From: Eledone cirrhosa
Lineage: Eukaryota
Direction: 5' to 3'
Assembly: GCA_964016885.1 (NCBI GenBank)
Contig: OZ024742.1
Span: forward strand, 174,964,001-175,028,000
DNA: 64,000 nucleotides
Part shown: in pieces, positions 5,095 to 63,710 of the stretch
Position numbering within the stretch: the stretch's first letter is position 1
How the letters are laid out: each line of letters starts with the position of its first letter
The notes under the pieces: model-generated
What the model saw: the letters and a program-made list of their open reading frames with translations, nothing else
Told to the model about the DNA's origin: nothing
The model's database searches: none
Program-made: the position numbers and the translations under genes

Positions 5095-5566
5095 GAAAAT
5101 TTAAGTAAGTAAGTAAAAAAAATTTTTTAAATTTTTTAAAAAATATTTTCTTATTTTACGTCTTTTATATTATTGTTCTGCACCCTCCTGCATTGAACCA
5201 CCTAGGTACTATGACATAACCTGTGTATTTGCTGGCATGGACGTGCATCTGTGCGCCTATGTTAGTTGATATATTAAATTATCTATATTTATCTCCAAAT
5301 CACTGATTTGTCGAGTAAACCTGCCAAAACCACTTCTAAATTTTTTTGGGGTGTTAGTAGGCGTCAGTCATCTTACCATCCCATTCCTTCTAACTAGCCT
5401 CTGTGTCACGTGATTGATTCTTTAGAATCGGCCATTTGACTAGAAGCAGTGAGAATTTCAGTACATGGAATCCAGTCCTCGCCAGCTGTTCTTTCTACCG
5501 AATTATTATTATTTTTATATAAGCCGCCAGTGTCCGCGCATTGCCTGGAGACTCAGCTGAGAATAG

Positions 5567-5648
5567 ACTCCCTGATGACGCAATGAATTCTCGACAGTTG
5601 GATTACGTAACTGTCTTTATCCCATTGCAGAAACTAATTAGTTGGAGT
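5567..5648 (+). ncRNA. Type I hammerhead ribozyme, family A, intact core
   Basis: ACTCC-CTGATGA-C-GCAATG..(GACAGTT/AACTGTC hairpin)..CATTGC-A-GAAA-CTAATTAG-TT-GGAGT; palindromic stem III. Confidence 0.85.
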
Positions 5649-5868
5649 GAAAATTTAAGTAAGTAAGTAAAAATTTTTTAAACATTTAAAAAAAATTATT
5701 TTCTTATTTTACGTCTTTTATGTTATTGTTCTGCACCCTCCTGCATTGAACCACCTAGGTACTATGACATAACCTGTGTATTTGCTGGCATGGACGTGCA
5801 TCTGTGCGCCTATGTTAGTTGATATATTAAATTATCTATATATATATTTATATATATATATATATTTT

Positions 5869-5919
<51 letters not shown>

Positions 5920-6022
5920 ATATATATATTTTTATATATATATATATTTTTATATTTATATATATATATATATATATATTTTCATATATATATATATTTA
6001 TATATATATATTTATATATATA

Positions 6023-6093
<71 letters not shown>

Positions 6094-6096
<3 letters not shown>

Positions 6097-6255
6097 AAGT
6101 ATGTATGTATACGTACATACATATATGTATACAGACGTACAGTAGCATGCATAAATTCAGGCTGTTCGGTTTGTTGACAAACAAACGAACAAAGCGACGT
6201 TATAATAAACGTCGGCTAAACTGATGCGTGCATATATGTATGTGTACCTGTATGC

Positions 6256-6322
<67 letters not shown>

Positions 6323-6760
6323 TGCTACTGTACGTCTGTATACATATATGTATGTACGTATACATACATACTTACATTTAAGTAAGTGCCATACTGAGAG
6401 TGAGAAATGAAATTTCGTTTTCATTTTTTTTCAACTTATCGTTTTCGGTATGCCTGACCGATTTAACTCACTCAATATGCAAATTAGGCTGCTCAGCCGT
6501 TAATTTTCATAAGGAAAGTATATACTTTCGAACGTTCAACTATCTGGCAGATGGGTAAACGGTGCTGATGATAGCTAACAAGCTTGAAACTAGTACATCG
6601 TTCCTGTGTCAGTGTTGAACAAAAAGGTGACGTGGTTGCCTTAACACCGTATGGCATAAATTCAGGCTGTTCGGTTTGTTGACAAACAAACGAACAAAGC
6701 GACGTTATAATAAACGTCGGCTAAACTGATGCGTGCATATATGTATGTGTACCTGTATGC

Positions 6761-6857
<97 letters not shown>

Positions 6858-6976
6858 GCATGCTACTGTACGTCTGTATACATATATGTATGTACGTATA
6901 CATACATACTTACATTTAAGTAAGTGCCATACTAACAGTGAGAAATGAAATTTCGTTTTCATTTTTTTCAACTTAT
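6094..6976 (+). mobile_element. Non-coding HHR retroelement (retrozyme-like family D): short inverted arm plus ~1.6 tandem ~505-bp monomers with internal (TA)n
   Basis: 6149-6438 repeats from 6654; 6095-6152 is the reverse complement of 6317-6375; HHR at 6558-6602; (TA)n flanks. Confidence 0.8.
6558..6602 (+). ncRNA. Minimal type I hammerhead ribozyme, family D
   Basis: AACGGTG-CTGATGA-T-AGCT-AACA-AGCT-T-GAAA-CTAG-TA-CATCGTT: 7-bp stem I, palindromic stem III ACTAGT, GUA triplet. Confidence 0.85.
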
Positions 6977-7478
6977 ATATATATTCATATATATTTACAT
7001 ATATATATATATTTATATATATATATATATATATTTTTATATATATATATTTATATATATATATCCTCTGTCCTAGCGATTTTGTCCCCTGAAGAGTTCG
7101 AAACACGAGTCTTATCCTTAATAGGTTATCTCAAAATGAGAACGAAACCATGGGTCGGGATTTAGGGATTTAACCCTGGTATGTATATAAGCATTTCTAA
7201 CTTTAATTTTATACCTAATTGTATATGGTTGACCGTATATTTAATTAATTTCCAAGTGGTGTTGAAATGTTGGGTAAATATTGTATGGCGGTTGGCTGCG
7301 AAGACGCTGCTATCGTTTATTTATTTACTGTTTCTTCATAGGTGCCTTTTAATCTTATAGCCTGGTCTAATTGATTTTTTTGTGCTAATTGGCAGAATAA
7401 ATGATGTATATATATTATCAAATGATTCTATGGGCATGCTTTACTTTATAGAATTTATATATATATATATATATATAT

Positions 7479-7890
7479 TTCGTTTCTGAATTTGTTTAGC
7501 AAGATTTTTTATCTGAAATCGTGTATTGAAACCGATATTGTTATACTTTGGGAGGGTCATGTTGCTGGTGCTCAGTTTGCGCATGCGCCACATCCGGGTG
7601 TCTGTGTGTGTTTGTGTTCATTTATCTAGAAACAAAATGGCGTAGAATAGAAGAAAGGAAAGGCACAGAAACAAAGAAAGGAATCCCCAGTCACTGAAGA
7701 GGTCACAGAGTGTGTGACGAAAGGACTATGACTATATATAAACAACTATCTGGTTGTGGAACCAACCAACCAACCAGAAATTTATAAGTTTGTAAATTTG
7801 TAAATTTATAAATATATAATAAATTGAAGTGAAGGCAACTGGTGCGTGTGTTTCTTATTGGCAACATGGCCCTCCCAAAGTATAACAATA
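7479..7890. mobile_element. Family B pLTR-only inverted insertion with intact HHR at 7689-7733 (+)
   Basis: Tail-bearing minus arm 7479-7625 (internally deleted), plus arm 7628-7890 ending at CCCAAAGTATAACAATAT; AGTCA-CTGAAGA-GGTCACA..TGTGAC-GAAA-GGAC-TA-TGACT. Confidence 0.8.
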
Positions 7891-12204: not shown

Positions 12205-12572
12205 CATCATCATTTTCATCATCATCATTTTACATCCGATTTTCCCTGCTTGCAAGTGTTGGACGGGAACTGATTCTGGCTTGATTTCTACAGCTGGATG
12301 CCCTTCCTAACACCAACCTAATTTACAGTGAGTGGTGGGTGCTTTTTTCCGTGGCGCCTACACGTCCACATTTTTTTGCTGTGATACCTCCACGACCAGT
12401 TTGCAGTGGAATGATAGGGACTCCAGTCCTATCATCTCATTTCTACAGCTGAGTTAACTGGAGCAATGTGAAATTAAGTGTCTTGTTCAAGGAAACAACA
12501 CATCACTAAGTCTGAGGATTGAACTTACAACCTTTCATTTGCAAGGCCAATGCTCTAAACACTAAGCCATGT
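12205..12572 (-). mobile_element. tRNA-headed SINE with RTE-like 3' end
   Basis: Minus-strand A/B-box head (TGGCTTAGTGTTTAGAGC...GTTCAATCC), GGAAGGGCATCCAGCTGTAGAAA motif, (GAT)n tail; near copy at 42330-42660. Confidence 0.75.
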
Positions 12573-12612
12573 GCGTCCATATATTTATATATATATATAT
12601 ATATATATCACG

Positions 12613-12645
<33 letters not shown>

Positions 12646-12682
12646 ATTATTATTATTATTATTGTTATTATTATTATTATAG

Positions 12683-14353
12683 ATAGACTGTTTCAGTTTA
12701 AAACCATTCTGAATGGACTCAACACAAACTTACAATTCACAATGGATTACAGCCATGAACAACTCCCTTTCCTCGACATTCTCATCAAGAAAACAACCAA
12801 CAAAATAGAAACAGACATATACTACAAACCGACAGACTCCAAACAATACCTCCCATTCAACTCGTGCCACCCTAGACACACCAAGATGGCAATTCCTTAT
12901 AACCTAGCCAGAAGGATCTGCACAATAGTTTCAGATAAATACACATGCTACACACGACTAGAAGAATTAAAAAACACCCTTATCAGCAGAAACTCCCCAC
13001 CATCCCTAATCAACAATCGATTTCAACGTGCCCTAAAATTAGACATCCAGGAACTCAGACACCCCAAACCCAGGAATGAACCGCAACAAAAAACTCTTTC
13101 ATACATCTCCACACACAACCCCCTCAACAATGAGGCATTCGATACCATCCTCCAGAATATTTCTTTAATACAAAGAGACCCAAGAATGAACAAAATCCTC
13201 CAAACACACAACATCATTAAGAGCAAAAGACAACATAAATCCATAAAAAAACACCTCACACAAGCCAAAATCCAACAAACTCTCACCATGAACCCTACAG
13301 TAACAAAATGCGGAAGTCCCAACTGTGGCATATGCATAAATCTAATAGAAGGTTCAACATTCCATTTTAAACAAGGACAGCGTTTCACAGTTAAGCACAA
13401 CTTTACATGTGCATTTGAAAACCTAATCTATGTTTTGACCTGCTCAGGTTGTCAAGAGCACTACATAGGACAGACAAAATCCAGCCTCCGTCAACGTATG
13501 ACCGTCCATAAATCACAAATTAAAATACAGGAATACAGAAATATTGCATTTAGTGAACATATCGCCAATTGTGCACACAACCAACATCCAAACTTTAACA
13601 TTTTCCCCATTTACAAATTCATAGACAACACTACTTTCATCCAACGCACCAATAAGGAAACATATTTCATTAACAAATTCCAACCACTATTTAATGCTCT
13701 AAAAATCGGACCAATCTAAAACTGCAACAAACAATCAAACATTTATAAGTGTTACCTCCCTCACACCCTGCCTAATCCTTTTTCTTAAATAAATTAAATA
13801 TCATCCAGCAAGAATTGCTTCCCCCTGCATATTAACTCTCTAAAAAGGGAAATTATATCAAACCCCAGTCCACCATTTGGAATAATGGAATCATGGATCA
13901 ACTAAGCACTCTTGCTATATTAATACATTTTGATCTGCTTAACTTCAATAACTATGCCTGTAAATAACATTATTTTTTCTTCCACATTGACTTTTTATGC
14001 TCTACATTATGCCCGTTTTTTTTCTTTTTTCTTTTCACTTCAGAAACCTTGTTTGTAAATAACATTATTCTTTCTGCACCTTCTCTTTAACATGTGTGAC
14101 ACCACACTAATAGATTTCACTATCATTTGATAATGCATAAAAATGCTGAAACCAGTAATAGACAATTATTAAATATATAAATAGATAAATAAATGCCATT
14201 GTTAAATAATAAATAAATCAACTAATACCTTGACCCTTCACACAAAGTAAAACATTTTGTTTTAATCATTTTCTAACCCAGAAAAAAGAGAGAGAGAGAG
14301 AAACAAAAAAGGAAAAAAAAATATTTTTCTTCCTTACAATCGTCTCTTTATCC

Positions 14354-17991: not shown

Positions 17992-18058
17992 TATTTTATT
18001 ATACATATTTCAGAGGCACTGAATTAAGTTAAACAGTACGTCCTCATCAGATAAAATA
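17992..18058 (-). ncRNA. Type I hammerhead ribozyme (family F), intact core, in the inverted pLTR arm
   Basis: TATTTTAT-CTGATGA-GGAC-GTACTG..CAGTGC-CTCT-GAAA-TATGTA-TA-ATAAAATA on the minus strand. Forward copies at 18458, 22459 and 26460 have AAAA instead of GAAA. Confidence 0.75.
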
Positions 18059-18719
18059 AAATGATACATGACATACCCTGACATAGTAGATGGTTAAGAT
18101 TTAATCAAGGTAGTGATTAACTTATGACAAAACTCAATATGTATACCCTAATATTGCGAACATAACTAAATAAGTTATCACATCAGCTGTTTCTTCCTAT
18201 ATGCTTTCCTTTCCCTCCTCTTTCTCTATAGATTTTAAAAATATAAATTCTATAACTGTTATATTGATGCCATGTATTTCTTAAAATATATTACTCAAAC
18301 TCTCTCTATTGTTTGTATTACGTTTTCTCATGTTCTCAATATTAGGGTGTAAATATTGAGTTTTGTCATAAGTTAATCACTACCTTGATTAAATCTTAAA
18401 CAACTACCATGTCAGGGTATGTCAGGTATCATTTTATTTTATTTTATTTTATTTTATCTGATGAGGACGTACTGTTGAACTTAATTCCGTGCCTCTAAAA
18501 TATGTATAATAAAATATAATTGATCACAAGAATATCTATTTTGTTAATATTTTGAATTAATATTAATAACTCTGGAAACTATTAACTGTAGAATGCTTCC
18601 AATCTATTGTCAAACTCATTCGTTGATGTATTCATTGAATCTTGTTTAACTCTTAAATATATATAGCTCCCAGCAGGTTGAGCGCTTTTCTATACAGTAG
18701 ATTGCATATTTAATAAATT

Positions 18720-20944
18720 ATGGAATTCTTAACCTTCCCGACATCCCTTAAGTGAGGAATACATGAGGAAAATTATCGAACAAACAAACTCTTTTATAAG
18801 AAGAATGAGATGGCGAGCATTTCATTTCGAAAATAAAGATGCTAAAAGAAAAACCAACAGCAATCATTTCGAAACTTTATTTAAATCAAGAAAGAATCCT
18901 ACATACAACAAACTCCTGGAGTATTTTGAAACTGAAATGCTCGGTATACTTAAGAAAATTAAATTTAGGAAAAACCCATATATAGGTCACCAATACCTTA
19001 GAACTTTAAAAGAAAAAATCACGGAAATAAAAAAAAAGTGAATAAAATATTGGTAAAATCGGACAAAACAAACAATTTATATGGGATAAATAAAGAAGAA
19101 TATAATAACTTGATTTTAAAGGAACTTAGGAAAAATTATAAAACGCCCCGGCTGAAGATCTTACAGACATCAATAATGATGCATATAAATTAATTGCCAA
19201 ATTAGAAATTGAAGGAAGAACAGAGCCTCTTATAACTAGACAGCCGCGGATCAATTTATAAGATCACAAAAGAAACTTCGAGGAATACCTGCCAGTTAGA
19301 CTGATTGCTCCATCCAAATCGGATATTGGAGTAATCAGTAAAGATATTATTGATATAATTCTACCTACTCTGAAATTGAGGTCTAAATTGAGCTTGTGGA
19401 AGGATACACCGAAGTCATTGAATGGTATAAGAATATAGATGATAAGAAAAACCGTAAATTCATCCAGATGGACATAACAAGCTATTACTCTTCCATTACG
19501 CCCAACCTACTGAATAAGGCTTTATCATACGCTTACAAACATACTGATCTAACTACGGATGAAATTGATATCATATTAACTGCTAGAAGAACTCTTATTA
19601 ACTTCAACAATGAGTATTGGACCCGCTCAGATAGAAATAGAAACTTTGACATTACCATGGGATCATCTGATTCAGCGCAAATCACGGATCTTCTGGGAAT
19701 TTTCATCTTAAATATGATAAATAGAAAACTGCCGGAGATTACCGGTGGTTTATATAGGGACGATATTTTATTTACGGTTGTTAAACACAACAATATAGAA
19801 CTAAATAAAGTAAAGAAAAATATAATTGAATTCTTTAAAATTTACGACCTTGAACTAGAAGTAAAAAGTGGTACCAAAATAGTTAATTTCCTTGATGTTA
19901 CCTTTAACTTAAACTCTGGTTTTTATTACCCTTTCCATAAGCCCAATGAAAACTTAAATTACGTTAGTTATTACTCTAATCACCCTAAGTCAGTGAAAAA
20001 AGCAAATGTAAATAGCGTACAAAAACGCAGAAATAGAATATCTGCCAATAAATCAATATTTGATGTAAATGCAGGATATTACAATGATGCGCTAAAAAAG
20101 GCAGGTTATAAAAATAATATAGAATATATAGACAATAATAATCCAAGTTTTAATCCTGATAAAAATATTGGCATATATAAACGAAATTTTATAAATTCTA
20201 TTAATTATAATTTAAACACCTGTACTGTGAATAAATTGGGGAAAAGAACCAGAACTAAATCAGTTATATGCCCCCCACCCCACCCCTGCTTCTGTAGCAG
20301 TAAGAACACCAATAGCTAATCTATTTTTTAAAGCTTTGGATACTTCATTCCCTAGTCAACATAAATAACATTCCATTTTTAATAAACACATAATAAAATT
20401 ATCTTATTCTACAACTATGAATATGGCCCAAACCACGCTAAAATAAACAGTATAATTCTAAATCAAAATCAACATAATGATATAAATAATAATAAATCTA
20501 AATGTAATTGTAGAAATGAACCAGATTGCCCTCTGAAAAATAATTGTTTGGATAGAAATTTGGTGTAATTGCACCGTAAAAACAAATGACAACACATACA
20601 ACTACATAGGAGCAACTTCTTCAACATTTAAATCGAGATTTGCGAATCACAAATGCTCATTCTCGAATTCTAATAGGAAGTCTTCGACTTCTTTATCACA
20701 GTTTATATGGTCATTAAAAGACAAAAAGTTAAAATACTCGATCTTTTGGGCGAAGCTTTGTAATAGTGGAGTTTATATCAACTCTTCAATATCAATTAAC
20801 TGCAGCCTCTGTACAAAGGAGACCCTATTAATAATTAATAATTATGAAAACTTAATTAACAAAAAAAGTGAATTATTCTCAAACTGCCTTCATAAAGCTT
20901 TGTCTACATTCCAAGCCTCGCAAAAAGTCATGAAAAAACAGTAA
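18720..20944 (+). pseudogene. Naiad-like RT plus C-terminal GIY-YIG polyprotein, frameshifted (copy 1)
   Basis: FIRRMRWRAFHF, FIQMDITSYYSSI, FDITMGSSDSAQITDLLG, GLYRDDIL, VNFLDVTFNL, CNCR..CPL..C, NYIGATSSTFKSRFANH, CSLCTKE, LINKKSELFSNCLH; several frameshifts and stops. Confidence 0.88.
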
Positions 20945-22720
20945 GCAACCAAGCCTGATTTTCGACGTCTATCATCAACTGTTGAACTTATAAGTCATAA
21001 CGGTTTATAAAATTTTAATAATGCTTTATCTTCTAATCATTTATAATGGAATTAATGTTCGAATGAATGACACTTGTTTGATGACTGGTTTACTTGATAG
21101 ATATGCATACCCTATGATTGTTTGGATATTTTTAACTTTGATTCAGATCTTTATTTTTCTGTCTCTGTTTTAAATATATAGTTTAGATATCTAACTTGTA
21201 AATTTACTGATTATAATTTGAACTGTGGATCATTCATGCGTTTCCATATTTTATATATATATATAATTTACTAATTTTGAGATGGTTTTTGGGGACTCAG
21301 AAAGTTGGATTTTCACTTTGTTTTTTTATGTATATTTAACAAACCATAATAGCTGACAAATATTGGTCTATATCTCCACCGAACTGGAGGTAAAACTACA
21401 ATTATAGCATTACTAACAATGATTATAATTGTTATTCTTTATTAAATGTATACCGTTTCATTAATACCTATAATTATATCTATATATAGTTTGTACAAAT
21501 ATCTTTATCTAGTGTAATAACATAATCGCAGTTACATTTATACATAATTTAAACACTCAAATGACATTATGTATTATTATAAGTGTTTGGTTTTCCCTGG
21601 AAGGTCGAACTTATATAATCATTTACTTAATACAATATATGAACAAATAATAAACTATAATCTTGGTATATTATGATCAATACATATATATAGTTGAAAA
21701 TTCTGACTTCTTTAAGTTTGATTATAAAGCCGATTGATACTTTAGGCACTCAAACTATTAACAATAAATTCTTTAATAGTTATAACTATAAATATCTTAT
21801 AAATTATATTATAGAAACTATTGTCAATATTATGAGTAATTTTGGTAAAGATTACCTTTGTGGGGATAGGAAACATTATATATATATATTTTCCTTCTTT
21901 CTCGGGTTTCGTAAATCCTTTAAATTTGTTTTCATAAAATTTGAATTTTAGAAATTTAATATAATTATATTATAATATTAATACAAATACCTATTAACTT
22001 TTAAAACCTAAAATTTGATTCTTTACCCTGAAATAACATAAATTAAATATTTTGAAAATTAACCGCCAACTATACTATATAAGAATCTGTGTGTTTAGAA
22101 ACTTGAACATAAATTACTCCCCTTTGTCTCTCTCTCTCTTTAATCATCTTTCATCTGTCTTCTCAAGCTAAATACTAAATAAGTTATTACATCAGCTGTT
22201 TCTTCCTATATGCTTTCCTTTCCCTCCTCTTTCTCTAGTAGTTTTTAAAAATTAAAAATTCTATAACTGTTATATTGATGCCATGTATTTCTTAAAATAT
22301 ATTACTCACACTCTCTCTATTGTTTGTATTACGTTTTCTCGTGTTCTCAATATTAGCGTATACATATTGAGTTTTGTCATAAGTTAATCACTACCTTGAT
22401 TAAATCTTAACCATCTACCATGTCAGGGTATGTCATGTATCATTTTATTTTATTTTATCTGATGAGGACGTACTGTTGAACTTAATTTCGTGCCTCTAAA
22501 ATATGTATAATAAAATATAATTGATCACAAGAATATCTATTTTGTTAATATTTTGAATTAATATTAATAACTCTGGAAACTATTAACTGTAGAATGCTTC
22601 CAATCTATTGTCAAACTCATTCGTTGATGTATTCATTGAATCTTGTTTAACTCTTAAATATATATAGCTCCCAGCAGGTTGAGCGCTTTTCTATACAGTA
22701 GATTGCATATTTAATAAATT

Positions 22721-24945
22721 ATGGAATTCTTAACCTTCCCGACATCCCTTAAGTGAGGAATACATGAGGAAAATTATCGAACAAACAAACTCTTTTATAA
22801 GAAGAATGAGATGGCGAGCATTTCATTTCGAAAATAAAGATGCTAAAAGAAAAACCAACAGCAATCATTTCGAAACTTTATTTAAATCAAGAAAGAATCC
22901 TACATACAACAAACTCCTGGAGTATTTTGAAACTGAAATGCTCGGTATACTTAAGAAAATTAAATTTAGGAAAAACCCATATATAGGTCACCAATACCTT
23001 AGAACTTTAAAAGAAAAAATCACGGAAATAAAAAAAAAGTGAATAAAATATTGGTAAAATCGGACAAAACAAACAATTTATATGGGATAAATAAAGAAGA
23101 ATATAATAACTTGATTTTAAAGGAACTTAGGAAAAATTATAAAACGCCCCGGCTGAAGATCTTACAGACATCAATAATGATGCATATAAATTAATTGCCA
23201 AATTAGAAATTGAAGGAAGAACAGAGCCTCTTATAACTAGACAGCCGCGGATCAATTTATAAGATCACAAAAGAAACTTCGAGGAATACCTGCCAGTTAG
23301 ACTGATTGCTCCATCCAAATCGGATATTGGAGTAATCAGTAAACATATTATTGATATAATTCTACCTACTCTGAAATTGAGGTCTAAATTGAGCTTGTGG
23401 AAGGATACACCGAAGTCATTGAATGGTATAAGAATATAGATGATAAGAAAAACCGTAAATTCATCCAGATGGACATAACAAGCTATTACTCTTCCATTAC
23501 GCCCAACCTACTGAATAAGGCTTTATCATACGCTTACAAACATACTGATCTAACTACGGATGAAATTGATATCATATTAACTGCTAGAAGAACTCTTATT
23601 AACTTCAACAATGAGTATTGGACCCGCTCAGATAGAAATAGAAACTTTGACATTACCATGGGATCATCTGATTCAGCGCAAATCACGGATCTTCTGGGAA
23701 TTTTCATCTTAAATATGATAAATAGAAAACTGCCGGAGATTACCGGTGGTTTATATAGGGACGATATTTTATTTACGGTTGTTAAACACAACAATATAGA
23801 ACTAAATAAAGTAAAGAAAAATATAATTGAATTCTTTAAAATTTACGACCTTGAACTAGAAGTAAAAAGTGGTACCAAAATAGTTAATTTCCTTGATGTT
23901 ACCTTTAACTTAAACTCTGGTTTTTATTACCCTTTCCATAAGCCCAATGAAAACTTAAATTACGTTAGTTATTACTCTAATCACCCTAAGTCAGTGAAAA
24001 AAGCAAATGTAAATAGCGTACAAAAACGCAGAAATAGAATATCTGCCAATAAATCAATATTTGATGTAAATGCAGGATATTACAATGATGCGCTAAAAAA
24101 GGCAGGTTATAAAAATAATATAGAATATATAGACAATAATAATCCAAGTTTTAATCCTGATAAAAATATTGGCATATATAAACGAAATTTTATAAATTCT
24201 ATTAATTATAATTTAAACACCTGTACTGTGAATAAATTGGGGAAAAGAACCAGAACTAAATCAGTTATATGCCCCCCACCCCACCCCTGCTTCTGTAGCA
24301 GTAAGAACACCAATAGCTAATCTATTTTTTAAAGCTTTGGATAGTTCATTCCCTAGTCAACATAAATAACATTCCATTTTTAATAAACACATAATAAAAT
24401 TATCTTATTCTACAACTATGAATATGGCCCAAACCACGCTAAAATAAACAGTATAATTCTAAATCAAAATCAACATAATGATATAAATAATAATAAATCT
24501 AAATGTAATTGTAGAAATGAACCAGATTGCCCTCTGAAAAATAATTGTTTGGATAGAAATTTGGTGTAATTGCACCGTAAAAACAAATGACAACACATAC
24601 AACTACATAGGAGCAACTTCTTCAACATTTAAATCGAGATTTGCGAATCACAAATGCTCATTCTCGAATTCTAATAGGAAGTCTTCGACTTCTTTATCAC
24701 AGTTTATATGGTCATTAAAAGACAAAAAGTTAAAATACTCGATCTTTTGGGCGAAGCTTTGTAATAGTGGAGTTTATATCAACTCTTCAATATCAATTAA
24801 CTGCAGCCTCTGTACAAAGGAGACCCTATTAATAATTAATAATTATGAAAACTTAATTAACAAAAAAAGTGAATTATTCTCAAACTGCCTTCATAAAGCT
24901 TTGTCTACATTCCAAGCCTCGCAAAAAGTCATGAAAAAACAGTAA
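22721..24945 (+). pseudogene. Naiad-like RT/GIY-YIG pseudogene (copy 2)
   Basis: Near-identical to copy 1, including the same disabling mutations. Confidence 0.88.
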
Positions 24946-26793
24946 GCAACCAAGCCTGATTTTCGACGTCTATCATCAACTGTTGAACTTATAAGTCATA
25001 ACGGTTTATAAAATTTTAATAATGCTTTATCTTCTAATCATTTATAATGGAATTAATGTTCGAATGAATGACACTTGTTTGATGACTGGTTTACTTGATA
25101 GATATGCATACCCTATGATTGTTTGGATATTTTTAACTTTGATTCAGATCTTTATTTTTCTGTCTCTGTTTTAAATATATAGTTTAGATATCTAACTTGT
25201 AAATTTACTGATTATAATTTGAACTGTGGATCATTCATGCGTTTCCATATTTTATATATATATATAATTTACTAATTTTGAGATGGTTTTTGGGGACTCA
25301 GAAAGTTGGATTTTCACTTTGTTTTTTTATGTATATTTAACAAACCATAATAGCTGACAAATATTGGTCTATATCTCCACCGAACTGGAGGTAAAACTAC
25401 AATTATAGCATTACTAACAATGATTATAATTGTTATTCTTTATTAAATGTATACCGTTTCATTAATACCTATAATTATATCTATATATAGTTTGTACAAA
25501 TATCTTTATCTAGTGTAATAACATAATCGCAGTTACATTTATACATAATTTAAACACTCAAATGACATTATGTATTATTATAAGTGTTTGGTTTTCCCTG
25601 GAAGGTCGAACTTATATAATCATTTACTTAATACAATATATGAACAAATAATAAACTATAATCTTGGTATATTATGATCAATACATATATATAGTTGAAA
25701 ATTCTGACTTCTTTAAGTTTGATTATAAAGCCGATTGATACTTTAGGCACTCAAACTATTAACAATAAATTCTTTAATAGTTATAACTATAAATATCTTA
25801 TAAATTATATTATAGAAACTATTGTCAATATTATGAGTAATTTTGGTAAAGATTACCTTCGTGGGGATAGGAAACATTATATATATATATTTTCTTTCTT
25901 TCTCGGGTTTCGTAAATCCTTTAAATTTGTTTTCATAAAATTTGAATTTTAGAAATTTAATATAATTGTATTATAATATTAATACAAATACCTATTAACT
26001 TTTAAAACCTAAAATTTGATTCTTTACCCTGAAATAACATAAATTAAATATTTTGAAAATTAACCGCCAACTATACTATATAAGAATCTGTGTGTTTAGA
26101 AACTTGAACATAAATTACTCCCCTTTGTCTCTCTCTCTCTTTAATCATCTTTCATCTGTCTTCTCAAGCTAAATACTAAATAAGTTATTACATCAGCTGT
26201 TTCTTCCTATATGCTTTCCTTTCCCTCCTCTTTCTCTAGTAGTTTTTAAAAATTAAAAATTCTATAACTGTTATATTGATGCCATGTATTTCTTAAAATA
26301 TATTACTCACACTCTCTCTATTGTTTGTATTACGTTTTCTCGTGTTCTCAATATTAGGGTATACATATTGAGTTTTGTCATAAGTTAATCACTACCTTGA
26401 TTAAATCTTAACCATCTACCATGTCAGGGTATGTCATGTATCATTTTATTTTATTTTATCTGATGAGGACGTACTGTTGAACTTAATTCCGTGCCTCTAA
26501 AATATGTATAATAAAATATAATTGATCACAAGAATATCTATTTTGTTAATATTTTGAATTAATATTAATAACTCTGGAAACTATTAATTGTAGAGTGCTT
26601 CCAATCTATTGTAAAACTCATTCTTTGATGTATTCATTCAATCTTGTTTAACTCTTAAATATATATATATATATTAGGGTGGCCGCTTTTCCACCCTAAT
26701 ATATATATATATACTCTTTTACTCTTTTACCTGTTTCAGCCATCCGGCTGAGGCCATGCTGGGGCCCCACCCTTATATATATATATATATATA

Positions 26794-34406: not shown

Positions 34407-34997
34407 TTTCGTTTCTGAATTTGTTTAGCAAGATTCTTTATCTGAAATCGTGTGTTGAAACCGATATTGTTATACTTTGGGAGGGTCATGTTGCCAATAA
34501 GAAACACACGCACCAGTTGCTTTCACTTCAATTTATTATATATTTATAAATTTATAAATTTACAAATCTACAAACTTATAAATTTCTGGTTGGTTGGTTG
34601 GTTCCACAACCAGATAGTTGTTTATATATATAGTCATAGTCCTTTCGTCACACACTCTGTGACCTCTTCAGTGACTGGGGATTCCTTTCTTCTCTTCGTT
34701 TCTGTGCCTTTTCTTTCTTCTATCCTACGCCATTTAGTTTCTGTGTGTGTGTTCAACAGAAACGAAGAGAAGAAAGGAATCCCCAGTCACTGAAGAGGTC
34801 ACAGAGTGTGTGACGAAAGGACTATGACTATATATATAAACAACTATCTGGTTGTGGAACCAACCAACCAACCAGAAATTTATAAGTTTGTAGATTTGTA
34901 AATTTATAAATTTATAAATATATAATAAATTGAAGTGAAAGCAACTGGTGCGTGTGTTTCTTATTGGCAACATGACCCTCCCAAAGTATAACAATAT
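34407..34997. mobile_element. Family B pLTR-only palindromic insertion with two intact HHRs (34632-34676 minus; 34785-34829 plus)
   Basis: 34464-34705 and 34756-34997 are apparently identical ~242-bp inverted repeats around a ~50-bp spacer; only the left arm has the ~57-nt tail; TA flanks. Confidence 0.9.
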
Positions 34998-41427: not shown

Positions 41428-41478
<51 letters not shown>

Positions 41479-41484
<6 letters not shown>

Positions 41485-42040
41485 GGAAAAAATGAAACGA
41501 AATTTCATTTCCCACTCTTAGTACGGCTGTTACTTAAATATAAGTATGTACACGCACATACATATATGTATACAGACGTACAGTAGTATGTATATACATA
41601 TACATGCATGCACACATATATATAGGTACGTATGGATTCACCGAACATTTATTATAATGTTCGGTGTGTTTGTAAACAAACATCACGTATTAAGCCGTAG
41701 TGTCTAGCAACCATCGTTGCTCGTTTTGACAAAGGAACGCTGTACTAGTTTCAAGCTTATTAGCTATCGGCAACAACGTATACCTTCCTGCCAGATTGTT
41801 GAACGTCTGAAAGTATATACTTACCTTACGCATATTGACGGCTGAGTAGCCCAATTTGCATATCGAGTGGCTTAATCGGCCGAGTGCACCGAAAACGATA
41901 AACGGAAAAAATGAAACACACCGAGCATTGTAATAAATATTCGGTGAATCCATACGTACATATATATATGTGTGCATGTATGTATATGTATATACATACT
42001 AGTGTACGTCTGTATACATATATGTATGTACGTGTACATA

Positions 42041-42045
<5 letters not shown>
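41479..42045 (-). mobile_element. Family D retrozyme-like copy: one ~420-bp monomer with terminal redundancy plus an inverted arm
   Basis: AAACGGAAAAAATGAAAC at 41481 and 41901; 41917-42045 is inverted against 41540-41668; degenerate HHR (TTGCCGA..AGCT..AGCTT-GAAA-CTAG-TA) at ~41737-41780 minus. Confidence 0.78.
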
Positions 42046-42076
<31 letters not shown>

Positions 42077-42669: not shown

Positions 42670-44093
<1,424 letters not shown>

Positions 44094-54871: not shown

Positions 54872-55719
54872 CGGCGATGAATTAGTTTTGCGAGGTTTTT
54901 TATATGAAATCGTGTGTCGAAACAAATATTGTTATACTTGGGGAGGGTCATATTTGTGTAATATTGCCAGAATTAATAACAGAACACACTCACTGTTTGG
55001 TTGGTTTTCGCTTCTGTGTCTTTTATATCGGTAATCTAATTTATTCGGTCCTCAATGTTGCCATTGACTGACCGACGGTCAAAAATAATACAGATAAAAT
55101 ATAGACACAAACACATATATATATAGTTTATCAAATTTCTTTCGTTGCACATCTGCAACATCGTCAGTGGTGCTATTGTTTCCTCCCGTTACATTGTATG
55201 TCTACGCCATTTTTATTTAGTCTGTCTATATATTTATTTATTTATTTGTTTGTTTGTTTATTTTATTTTGTCTTCTTTGCGCATGCGTTTGCGTGTGTGT
55301 ATAGTGTTTTGTTTGATGTGTGTTCGTCATTGTATTCCATGTATTCTATGTATTCTATATTTACTAGTGTGTGTTTATATGTGTTTGTTGTTATTGTGCT
55401 TGTGTATTTATTTATTTATTTATTTATCTATTTATTTATTTATACTTCTCTTAGGTCAGTGTTGTTGGGGGAGGAAACAATAGCACCACTGACGATGTTG
55501 CAGATGTGCAACGAAAGAACTTTGATAAACTATATATATGTGTTTGTGTCTATATTGTATCTGTATTATTTTTGACCGTCGGTCAGTCAATGGCAACATT
55601 GAGGACCGAATAAATTAGATTACCAATATAAAAGACACAGAAGCGAAAACCAACCAAGCAGTGAGTGTGTTCTGTTATTAATTCTGGCAATATTACACAA
55701 ATATGATCCTCCCCAAGTA

Positions 55720-55725
<6 letters not shown>
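54871..55725. mobile_element. Family C pLTR-only palindromic insertion with HHR cores in both arms (55140-55167 minus; 55489-55516 plus)
   Basis: ~54927-55187 inverted against ~55469-55725; only the left arm has the tail; homologous to 43430-44010; (TA)n flanks. Confidence 0.85.
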
Positions 55726-55759
<34 letters not shown>

Positions 55760-55768
55760 CATATACAT

Positions 55769-55831
<63 letters not shown>

Positions 55832-55852
55832 TATACATACACATATACATAC

Positions 55853-55931
<79 letters not shown>

Positions 55932-55934
<3 letters not shown>

Positions 55935-57990
55935 AAACAGAGACTGGACGACAAATTATGGCTTGACATAGAAACGAATTTCTGTCGGGCTGCCTACCAA
56001 CTAAAATGGATATCGACTCTCGGCAACAACACCACGGAATCTAACAAAGCCAGATTCCCGATATACCAACTGGATCGCCCACTCTGTCCACCGCCGGCCA
56101 ACCGTGAGCTTGAAGAAAAACTCTCGAGGCTAAAACATTCCGTATTTAACATCTTACGGAAACAGAAGATAGCCCCAAACTTCTCCAGGACACAACAACT
56201 CGCCCTGAAGAACCTACAGAATAGGGAACTTATATACTTACCATCCGACAAAGGTAAAGAGTTTTACGTCATATTTCAAGCCACATACAACAACCTAGCC
56301 TTTGAACACCTAAGCGACAATGACGTATATACAGAGATCCCGGACATGACTGCAGCCCAGATCGAAAAACAGACCAACTCCATCTGGTTCGATATCTGTA
56401 GGAGAAGACAACTCCCAAATAAAGTTAAGCTCAACTACACCACTAGAAATAGCAGACTGCCCACTTTCTACCACCTCATCAAGACCCACAAGAATAGTAC
56501 TAAGACACAAATAAGACCCATCGTCTCTAGCATAGAAGGACCCCTATACAAAATTTCCTGGCTCCTCTCCCAGGTCCTCAAGCCTCTACTCTCCACCTTT
56601 CCCGGGCATGTCAGTAGCTCTGACGAAGTTATACGTAGACTACACCAACTCCAGCCAGAACAACTTAAACTAAATAGATACGCCTTTAGCCTCGACGTTG
56701 TCTCCCTCTACACTACAGTCTCCGCTCATCCAGCTGTCGATTTATTGACGGACTGCGTGGTCGCAGAGGACATCCACTGCTACGGACTCCATCCGACGGA
56801 CATACACCAGCTTTTGTCCTTCACAGTGGACAACACGTACTTCACCTTCCACCACCACACATACAGACAGACAACAGGATTACCCATGGGATCCAGCCTA
56901 TCGGACCTGCTGGCCATCACCTATATGAACCAGCTAGAATGCCGAGCCCTCAACACCTGCCATTCCCATACCTTCTTCACCCGATATGTAGATGACATAC
57001 TCATCCTTACATCATCCCGTGAGGAGGCAGATAAAATATACACAACATTCTCCAACATGGACGCCAGTATAAAGTTCAGCATGGAACGCCCCAATGACCG
57101 CGGATCCCTATCCCTACTGGACTTCCAGCTCAGGGTAACAGAGGAAGGAAACATCCACACCTTCTTCTATAAAAAAGAAGCGAGCAGGGACCTCTGCGTA
57201 CATTTCAGATCGGCCCTCCCAGCCGGCGCTAAGTTCGGATACATAAGGAACGAACTAACACGTATCCAGAACAAATGCACCGACGCTAGAGACCGAGACA
57301 CTCACCACACATTTCCTGGAAGTACTCAAACTGAACGGATACACAAAATCCACCACTAAGGAAAGAAACCTCGGCAATCTTAGAAGTAAGGAAGCACTAA
57401 TTATAGACAAAACACAACCACCAATCAATAATAGACTAGAACTCAACACCCAATTTATAACTTGATAGAGCATCTAACCCCATATTTACACAGCCCCCCC
57501 CCCCCACACACACACGCACGCATACACACACACACACACGCTTACACCTCCACTTATTCTCTCACACACACACACATACACACACAAAGACCAGTTCTAA
57601 CACAAGATAACATCTATCCCCCACATTTACGTATAGAAATATCTTCTCACACTCACACACACAAATACTTACACCTTCATGCACTCTCCCACACACTTAA
57701 ACAGGCATGTAAAAAAAACCCTTTTAAAGGGAGACTACTCTTTATCCACCTAATCTTAACTCTTTGAAATTAGAGGTAGAACAGATACTCTATACCATTT
57801 CCTGTCAGCATGACTTGGCAAGCTATTTAGAACACGGGTTTAACCGCTTTACTTCCGTCCGAAGAAAAGATATTATCTCGAAAATTAAGGACATTTAAAT
57901 AAATCTAAGGTAAAAGACTAATTGTCAACAATATCTTTTGCATTTGCTTTCTTTATGTTATGTTCATACCTGCGTTTTTTTGGCTTTATT
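55932..57990 (+). mobile_element. Penelope-like element: long open RT domain (55932-57359), endonuclease missing
   Basis: [59 protein letters not shown]; truncated after the thumb; possible HHR remnant at 57857-57892; TA-rich flanks. Confidence 0.88.

Positions 57991-58272: not shown

Positions 58273-63710
<5,438 letters not shown>

What the first reader, a model, noticed from the sequence alone, without database searches (positions are those of the whole stretch)
6094..6976. Family D: second, unrelated retrozyme-like family with a minimal hammerhead and an internal (TA)n tract
Seen: ~505-bp tandem unit with a textbook minimal HHR (6558-6602, palindromic ACUAGU stem III). A diverged copy at 41479-42045 has a ~420-bp unit with ~20-nt terminal redundancy. 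Both end at the same TTTA/CTTA-(TA)n site and neither is coding. The monomer carries its own (TA)n tract, the same sequence these elements insert into. Inference: a circular-template non-autonomous element that may spread new landing pads for itself and for PLEs.
Basis: partly seen in the sequence, partly recalled or inferred. Interest (0 to 1): 0.75.

Follow-up and report, generated by a model that had tools for sequence, protein, structure and literature searches.

The report
Abundant retrozyme with Penelope two-ended insertions
This is one copy of a very abundant, protein-free 420-550-base repeat that carries a hammerhead ribozyme motif and sits in TA repeats; its mirror-image copies almost always end at two different fixed points, so it was likely pasted in from RNA by a Penelope-type jumping-gene enzyme, making it a new family of the known animal 'retrozymes'.

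Summary
The 505-bp unit, the type I hammerhead (6558-6602) and the second copy (41479-41917, minus strand) are there. The family is huge: 26,105 exact ribozyme hits in a 3.0-Gb genome, 23,085 with an intact core, with compensatory base changes.

Corrections:
- The ribozyme is a canonical short-helix-III type, not the published 'minimal' type.
- Copy 2's core is mutated and its TA tract is short.
- Both copies carry a missed head-to-head inverted arm.
- 3' ends are not permuted. They fall at two fixed sites about 60 nt apart (A, B), the Penelope 'tail'.

Where both ends could be assigned, inverted insertions had one A and one B end in 31 of 31, then 16 of 17. In 10 of 29 neither arm contains the other, so both were likely primed on RNA. 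35 of 39 copies run through the cleavage site, so the template was circular or uncut multimer. Circles are likely but unshown, and no RNA run was listed. No coding partner was found. Nested insertions in the internal TA tract exist but are rare.

It is a new member of the non-LTR retrozymes. The scan noted this footprint before in other families of this genome.

The parts
5822..6093 (.). (TA)n target tract, left flank of copy 1
   Evidence: sequence
6094..6156 (-). Inverted arm of copy 1; its outer end is site A
   Evidence: 63 nt, 98% identical to 6314-6376 reversed
6149..6976 (+). Direct arm of copy 1 (subfamily D1), 1.64 units of 505 bp; outer end is site B
6263..6319 (+). Internal (TA)n tract, unit 1 (tip of a predicted long hairpin)
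   Evidence: fold of sister units
6535..6619 (+). Extended helix I carrying the hammerhead at its tip
6558..6602 (+). Type I hammerhead motif, intact core, predicted cleavage 6595/6596; U-U at base of helix II, 2-bp palindromic helix III
6768..6857 (+). Internal (TA)n tract, unit 2
6912..6976 (+). Tail between fixed end site A (~6912-6918) and fixed end site B (6975/6976)
6974..7064 (.). (TA)n target tract, right flank of copy 1
41431..41481 (.). (TA)n flank of copy 2 at its site B end
41479..41917 (-). Direct arm of copy 2 (subfamily D2), 419-bp unit + 20 nt; outer end is site B
41736..41780 (-). Hammerhead motif of copy 2 with two core changes (degenerate)
41914..42045 (+). Inverted arm of copy 2; outer end is site A
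   Evidence: 94% identical to 41540-41671 reversed
42043..42074 (.). (TA)n flank of copy 2 at its site A end

Best explanation
Family D is a high-copy, non-coding, hammerhead-bearing tandem repeat (a non-LTR retrozyme) that was likely copied from RNA into (TA)n tracts by the enzyme of a Penelope-like retrotransposon working in trans. Shown: copy number, conserved ribozyme and fold, two fixed 3' ends about 60 nt apart, scattered 5' ends, head-to-head arms with one A and one B end, (TA)n flanks, read-through of the cleavage site. Inferred: a copy with two or more hammerheads is transcribed; the weak hammerhead cuts incompletely, giving monomers and multimers that are likely ligated into circles; a Penelope RT/GIY-YIG protein (predicted dimer in the one element studied in vitro) nicks both strands of (TA)n; one cut end primes at site B and the other at site A of the same RNA; the two cDNAs run upstream, often through the cleavage site and round more than one unit, and join head-to-head. 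The internal TA run is the slippage-prone tip of an RNA hairpin and is only occasionally hit by later insertions. Window copies 1 and 2 are dead-end products (one hammerhead each).
For: 26,105 hits to a 25-nt ribozyme pattern, 0 for the reversed control; 23,085 with the 9 upstream bases, including the CUGANGA core, also intact. The frequent core change among sampled copies is U/C at the free position 7. One stem I pair occurs as G-U 7, U-G 7, A-U 3, C-G 2 of 20 rows. 8 of 121 predicted pairs over the whole unit are compensatory. Circular folds give z -10.6 and -8.9 on the sense strand, stronger than antisense. 3' ends: 75 B, 60 A, 45 other of 180 arms; TA follows 126 of the 135 A/B ends. Head-to-head pairs: 31 of 31 assignable are A+B (53 pairs, 22 with an unassignable end, 2 duplicates); a second set gave 16 of 17 (28 pairs, 11 unassignable). 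In 10 of 29 neither arm contains the other, and 29 of 29 have both arms from the same subfamily. 35 of 39 arms pass the cleavage site; the stop rate there (4/39) matches other 30-nt windows (3/42, 7/49, 3/52). The hypervariable middle is the same within arrays in 153 of 254 unit pairs versus 74 of 4211 between arrays. One insertion has 12 full units in strict XYXY order in both arms. Inverted 5' copy, one-sided tail and (TA)n bias are Penelope hallmarks (PMC8557442, PMC3846280). A Penelope protein cuts and extends both strands and starts inside its RNA at two sites that define the tail (PMC11167929).
Against: No autonomous partner was found: 0 of 50 GIY-YIG loci and 0 of 28 Hydra-type loci have family D as their own terminal repeat; these sample only part of 10,597 candidates. 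Self-cleavage, transcription and circles are not shown. In the one in vitro study the hammerhead was not needed for insertion (PMC11167929), and 8 of 9 Xenopus retrozyme dimers did not cleave (10.64898/2026.07.22.740005). Some arrays are mixed (XXYYX; local period-2 duplications), which a single monomer circle cannot give. 19 of 29 pairs are also compatible with fold-back copying, 3 with symmetric junctions. One A+A pair was found. 45 of 180 ends were unassigned, partly through parser breaks. Covariation counts rest on related subfamilies, so independent events are few.
Confidence: 0.8

Rival explanations
1. Same element and enzyme, but no circles. The templates are uncut linear read-through transcripts of tandem loci, and long arrays arise afterwards by DNA-level tandem expansion, as satellite DNA does.
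For: Read-through of the cleavage site fits uncut RNA equally well. Mixed arrays and local period-2 duplications exist. The hammerhead has weak features and was dispensable in vitro for PAc (PMC11167929). Li et al. propose local amplification (10.64898/2026.07.22.740005).
Against: Only 8 of 57 unbiased arms hold two or more hammerheads, so linear copying with truncation would shrink arrays each round. Some arrays have identical TA lengths in nearly all units, across both arms in two cases. Strict XY alternation runs through both opposite arms of one insertion. Junctions are unique to each locus apart from local duplicates. The core is conserved across subfamilies.
Confidence: 0.35
2. The inverted arm arises by self-priming or fold-back of one cDNA (or from an antisense template), with the second end set by endonuclease cutting, not by two primings on the RNA.
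For: Proposed for Penelope inversions from junction palindromes (PMC3846280). 19 of 29 pairs have one arm inside the other, and 3 have symmetric junctions. The 12-unit insertion is nearly symmetric.
Against: 10 of 29 pairs have neither arm inside the other, including a tail-only arm opposite an arm that lacks the tail (L108). The longer arm was the A arm in 8 and the B arm in 8 of 16.
Confidence: 0.2
3. Family D copies are just 5'-truncated terminal repeats (pLTRs) of an autonomous Penelope element that I did not find.
For: All end features are those of Penelope termini. Only part of the genome's Penelope families was examined.
Against: The unit joins back onto itself past site B in arrays of up to 12 full units with no ORF between. 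The two apparent ORF links were single insertions into a Hydra-type element: the junction pattern occurs once in the genome, and 38 other copies of that ORF end in the best-hit list lack D at that junction.
Confidence: 0.08
4. The internal (TA)n tract is an adaptation that seeds landing pads for the element itself and for Penelope elements.
For: Nested insertions exist: a D1 insertion inside a D2 tract (L016), D stubs inside D (L250), a palindromic TA-flanked repeat (L033).
Against: About 5 of roughly 340 tracts are hit. (TA)n is already abundant. Only 4 of 56 D2 tracts reach 20 nt. The tract is part of a conserved hairpin. A neighbouring coding Penelope's end also has short internal TA runs.
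Confidence: 0.07

Closest known systems
Metazoan non-LTR retrozymes (Cervera and de la Pena 2020, PMC7229834; Li, Clavereau and Pollet 2026, bioRxiv 10.64898/2026.07.22.740005)
   Same: Non-coding tandem units with a type I hammerhead in each, GC under 50% (33.7%), strongly self-paired predicted RNA, tens of thousands of copies, coexistence with Penelope elements. The U-U pair at the base of helix II also occurs in axolotl HHR_Amex2, which cleaves weakly alone and better as a dimer.
   Different: Unit a little larger than the usual 150-450 nt. In the parts I read, these papers do not describe fixed A/B ends, inverted arms or (TA)n targeting. Expression, cleavage and circles are shown for their examples, not for this family. 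No parent pLTR was found here.
Endonuclease-bearing Penelope-like elements (Penelope/Poseidon, Neptune, Hydra; PMC8557442, PMC3846280, PMC11167929)
   Same: Partial tandems, inverted 5'-truncated copy, tail at one end only, two internal RT start sites, (TA)n bias, hammerhead upstream of the ends.
   Different: No ORF. The tail is about 60 nt rather than 30-40. The unit closes on itself, so arms can be many units long.
[quoted passage not shown]
   Same: Type I, conserved core, palindromic positions around helix III, expected to work as dimers.
   Different: min-HHRs lack helix III, have a 7-8 bp helix II, a short helix I and a G10.1-C11.1 pair. This motif matches that paper's 'canonical' metazoan type instead.

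Membership tests
Non-LTR retrozyme | Short tandem units, each with a type I hammerhead | tested here: met
   Units of about 420-580 bp from hammerhead to hammerhead, arrays up to 12 full units. The two window copies themselves hold only one hammerhead each.
Non-LTR retrozyme | No protein-coding capacity, not attached to a coding element | tested here: met
   No ORF; apparent ORF links were single insertions; 0 of 50 GIY-YIG loci carry D as their own end. Sampling is partial.
Non-LTR retrozyme | Low GC, highly self-paired monomer | tested here: met
   GC 33.7%; 68-69% paired, z -10.6 and -8.9; 8 of 121 pairs compensatory. Predicted structure only.
Non-LTR retrozyme | No LTR, PBS or PPT | tested here: inconclusive
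   No LTR-type layout in the copies mapped. PBS and PPT were not searched for.
Non-LTR retrozyme | Self-cleavage of the RNA | not testable with these tools
   Needs an in vitro assay; the conserved core is indirect support only.
Non-LTR retrozyme | Expression as circular RNA | not testable with these tools
   No RNA holder was listed; only contigs could be laid.
Autonomous Penelope-like element | ORF with RT and GIY-YIG endonuclease | tested here: not met
Penelope-type insertion footprint | Inverted 5' copy and a tail at one end only | tested here: met
   31 of 31 and 16 of 17 assignable head-to-head pairs are A+B
Penelope-type insertion footprint | Fixed 3' ends, variable 5' truncation, (TA)n targets | tested here: met
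   135 of 180 ends at A or B; TA follows 126 of those 135; 5' ends scattered
Non-autonomous derivative of a named Penelope family | Sequence similarity to an autonomous pLTR | tested here: inconclusive
   None among 78 loci examined, out of thousands of candidates
min-HHR (PMC4209133) | No helix III, long helix II, G10.1-C11.1 pair | tested here: not met
   2-bp helix III, 4-bp helix II, U-U at the base

The most novel reading that the evidence does not exclude
A Penelope enzyme grips one circular retrozyme RNA at two fixed sites, primes one target strand at each, and rolls both cDNAs round the circle, monomer or dimer. This would explain in one step the Penelope inverted copy, the one-sided tail and the birth of retrozyme arrays. 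Family D, with tens of thousands of copies and a protein-free 420-nt substrate, would be a ready test system.
Probability: 0.45. Interest if true: 0.6.

Novelty: new member of a known kind. Interest (0 to 1): 0.4.

Why it matters
The element class is known, and the link between retrozymes and Penelope elements has been argued from co-occurrence and pLTR similarity. What this family adds is a countable insertion footprint: 47 of 48 assignable inverted insertions have one A end and one B end, and a third of those tested cannot be made by fold-back. That ties retrozyme mobility to Penelope chemistry and favours two primings on the RNA over the published self-priming model. It is testable with a short non-coding RNA and a purified Penelope protein. 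I found no paper stating the rule as a count (searches; subscription papers are not covered), but the one-sided tail is described qualitatively in PMC8557442 and PMC3846280. The landing-pad idea is true only as a side effect.

Tried and rejected
- Rfam scan: only microRNA-type hits below threshold on TA-rich DNA and no hammerhead family. Uninformative.
- Autonomous partner: L083 looked like D fused to a GIY-YIG end, but other copies of that Hydra-type ORF lack D there and have their own hammerhead and ends. The L011 junction occurs once in the genome. 50 GIY-YIG loci from several families held D only as separate nearby insertions.
- Expression: no RNA holder listed. Laying contigs of four runs said nothing on RNA. 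No evidence either way.
- Two end-calling parsers failed. One search merged TA-rich noise. One search gave 10 mixed versus 6 same-end pairs; 5 of the 6 same-end calls were internal variants misread as ends (their printed flanks continue into the unit), and the sixth is the L250 pair kept. The alignment-based one search replaced it on the same 40 loci.
- Short inverted stubs in the 5' flank of unpaired arms: found in only 6 of 55, all of the opposite end type. Weak.
- Pile-up of 5' ends at the cleavage site (expected for cut linear monomers): not seen.
- Circular permutation of 3' ends: not seen.
- Source of the XY dimer array: a sister locus has X and Y units in the order XXYYX but different microsatellite middles, so it is not the direct source.
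- 4 of the 6 automatic 'nested insert' flags were variant anchors, not inserts.
- bioRxiv supplements were not available and PMC supplements were not opened; supplementary figures on Hydra ends and retrozyme insertion models may bear on novelty.

Full report
Observation. The stretch 6094-6976 lies between two (TA)n tracts. A type I hammerhead sits at 6558-6602. The second copy is a 439-nt minus-strand arm (41479-41917, one 419-bp unit plus 20 nt) with its own inverted arm (41914-42045); its core has two changes and its hammerhead region folds no better than shuffles. Neither copy codes. Each has one hammerhead, so neither could release a unit-length RNA by double cleavage (inference).

Family size and ribozyme. 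A 25-nt helix II-III pattern has 26,105 exact hits in the 3.0-Gb own genome and 0 reversed. 23,085 keep the upstream core as well, and a pattern near the 3' end has 34,598 hits. There are two main subfamilies, D1 (copy 1; about 465-580 bp) and D2 (copy 2; about 420-430 bp), plus intermediates. The frequent core change among 93 sampled motifs is U/C at position 7, the free position (the numbering is established knowledge). One stem I pair appears as G-U, U-G, A-U and C-G. The whole unit folds far better than shuffles as a circle (z -10.6 and -8.9, 30 shuffles each; antisense -5.4 and -4.9), and 8 of 121 consensus pairs show compensatory change in 14 units. These counts rest on related subfamilies, so independent events are few. 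By the definitions in PMC4209133 the motif is the canonical metazoan type, not the minimal type. The U-U pair at the base of helix II has a precedent in axolotl HHR_Amex2, weak alone and better as a dimer (PMC7229834).

Ends. In 97 stitched regions (30 best-hit loci, the first listed hits on contig 1, and extensions) 180 arms were mapped: 75 end at site B, 60 at site A about 60 nt upstream, 45 elsewhere or unresolved; TA follows 126 of the 135 A/B ends. 5' ends are scattered. So start points are not circularly permuted. Of 53 head-to-head pairs, 31 had both ends assignable and all 31 were A+B (two are local duplicates). In 40 further loci, 28 pairs were found, 17 assignable, 16 A+B and 1 A+A. 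An earlier motif parser on the same loci gave 10 versus 6 because it misread internal variants. Both window copies obey the rule. In 10 of 29 distinct pairs neither arm lies within the other, and both arms always belong to the same subfamily. Fold-back copying of one cDNA cannot make these ten, so both ends were likely primed on the RNA. The other 19 fit either model.

Comparison with Penelope elements. An inverted 5'-truncated copy, a 30-40-bp tail often at only one end, and (TA)n bias are described for Penelope-like elements (PMC8557442, PMC3846280); the latter paper proposes self-priming on an antisense template. The anole element PAc cuts and extends both target strands, is predicted to be a dimer, and starts reverse transcription inside its RNA at two sites that define the tail; its hammerhead was not needed for insertion in vitro (PMC11167929). 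Family D's footprint matches this. The window and genome hold many such elements. None of the 50 GIY-YIG loci and 28 Hydra-type loci examined has D as its own terminal repeat, and the two apparent fusions were single events. The partner is unknown.

Template. Among 57 arms chosen by a 3'-end pattern only, 39 come within 30 nt of the cleavage site and 35 run through it; the stop rate equals that of other windows. Cut linear monomers are therefore not the usual template. Only 8 of the 57 hold two or more hammerheads, yet arrays of 6-12 near-identical full units occur, with shared microsatellite patterns (153 of 254 unit pairs within arrays versus 74 of 4211 between). One insertion has 12 full units in strict XYXY order in both arms, with its A and B ends in the same unit type, as a dimer circle would give; fold-back of one array would also give it. 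Other arrays are mixed or show local duplications. I put circular templates at about 60-65%. No RNA run was listed, which is no evidence either way.

Landing pads. The internal TA run is the tip of a conserved hairpin. It is long in D1 (median 34 nt, 70 of 94 at least 20 nt) and short in D2 (median 12 nt, 4 of 56). Nested insertions were seen by eye in about five of roughly 340 tracts, including a full D1 A+B insertion inside a D2 tract (L016), D stubs (L250) and a palindromic TA-flanked repeat (L033). The effect is real but small beside the (TA)n arrays already present. No background rate was computed.

Papers, and what I saw. PMC7229834: parts 2 and 3 of 6 plus passages. bioRxiv 10.64898/2026.07.22.740005: parts 1-3 of 5 (introduction to discussion) plus a term search. 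PMC11167929: parts 1-2 of 4 (main text). PMC8557442: passages and section 11. PMC4209133: parts 1-2 of 4. PMC3846280: passages. No supplements were read. Clade labels for window ORFs (Neptune-like, Hydra-type) are my reading of their motifs against PMC8557442, not a phylogeny.

Verdict. A new, very abundant family of a known kind, the metazoan non-LTR retrozymes, which works like a non-autonomous Penelope element. The ribozyme motif and family are solid. Mobilisation by a Penelope enzyme is likely (0.8), circles are plausible, and adaptive landing pads are unlikely. The countable A+B rule is the most useful result. Earlier notes of this scan report the same footprint for other families in this genome; none matched this sequence. 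Interest 0.4.

Noticed in passing
window 5136-5946 and 58332-59604: Another hammerhead repeat (motifs at 5572 + and 58453 -), about 530-550-bp period, with a 438-nt head-to-head inverted pair.
   Followed up: no
window 7089-7156, 7694-7728, 34464-34997: Further hammerhead motifs. 34464-34997 is a perfect 242-nt inverted pair with a hammerhead in each arm. The end near 7480-7570 shares about 25 nt with the end of a Neptune-like coding element seen in L083 (by eye).
   Followed up: no
window 18233-26720: Tandem copies of a 4001-bp Penelope-like element with RT-like and GIY-YIG frames (Hydra-type motifs); a hammerhead-like motif lies nearby on the minus strand at 18050.
   Followed up: partly
window 12559-13719, 55707-57359, 42833-43276: Fragments of other Penelope-like ORFs next to (TA)n: GIY-YIG (Pfam hit), RT (Pfam hit) and a GIY-YIG-like piece.
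   Followed up: partly
L221 (G000:C1:125824800-125834700): Head-to-head insertion of 14 units in strict XY alternation, nearly symmetric, junction just past site A; best single candidate for a dimer-circle template.
   Followed up: yes
L125-L136: A Hydra-type Penelope family also has two fixed ends, roughly 90 nt apart by eye, before (TA)n, downstream of its own hammerhead.
   Followed up: partly
L200 (G000:C1:145868500-145877000) and L202 (G000:C1:83811000-83820500): Long open frames of 938 and 1096 aa ending in GIY-YIG; candidate intact Penelope ORFs.
   Followed up: no
L033:1720-1990, also flanking L071, L072, L089, L163: A short TA-flanked repeat with an internal perfect palindrome, seen beside several family D ends and once nested inside one.
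   Followed up: partly
runs X4-X6: Runs labelled with three other organism codes hold over 60% of the sampled words, at very low depth where laid and none laid for X4; relatives or carry-over, not resolved.
   Followed up: no
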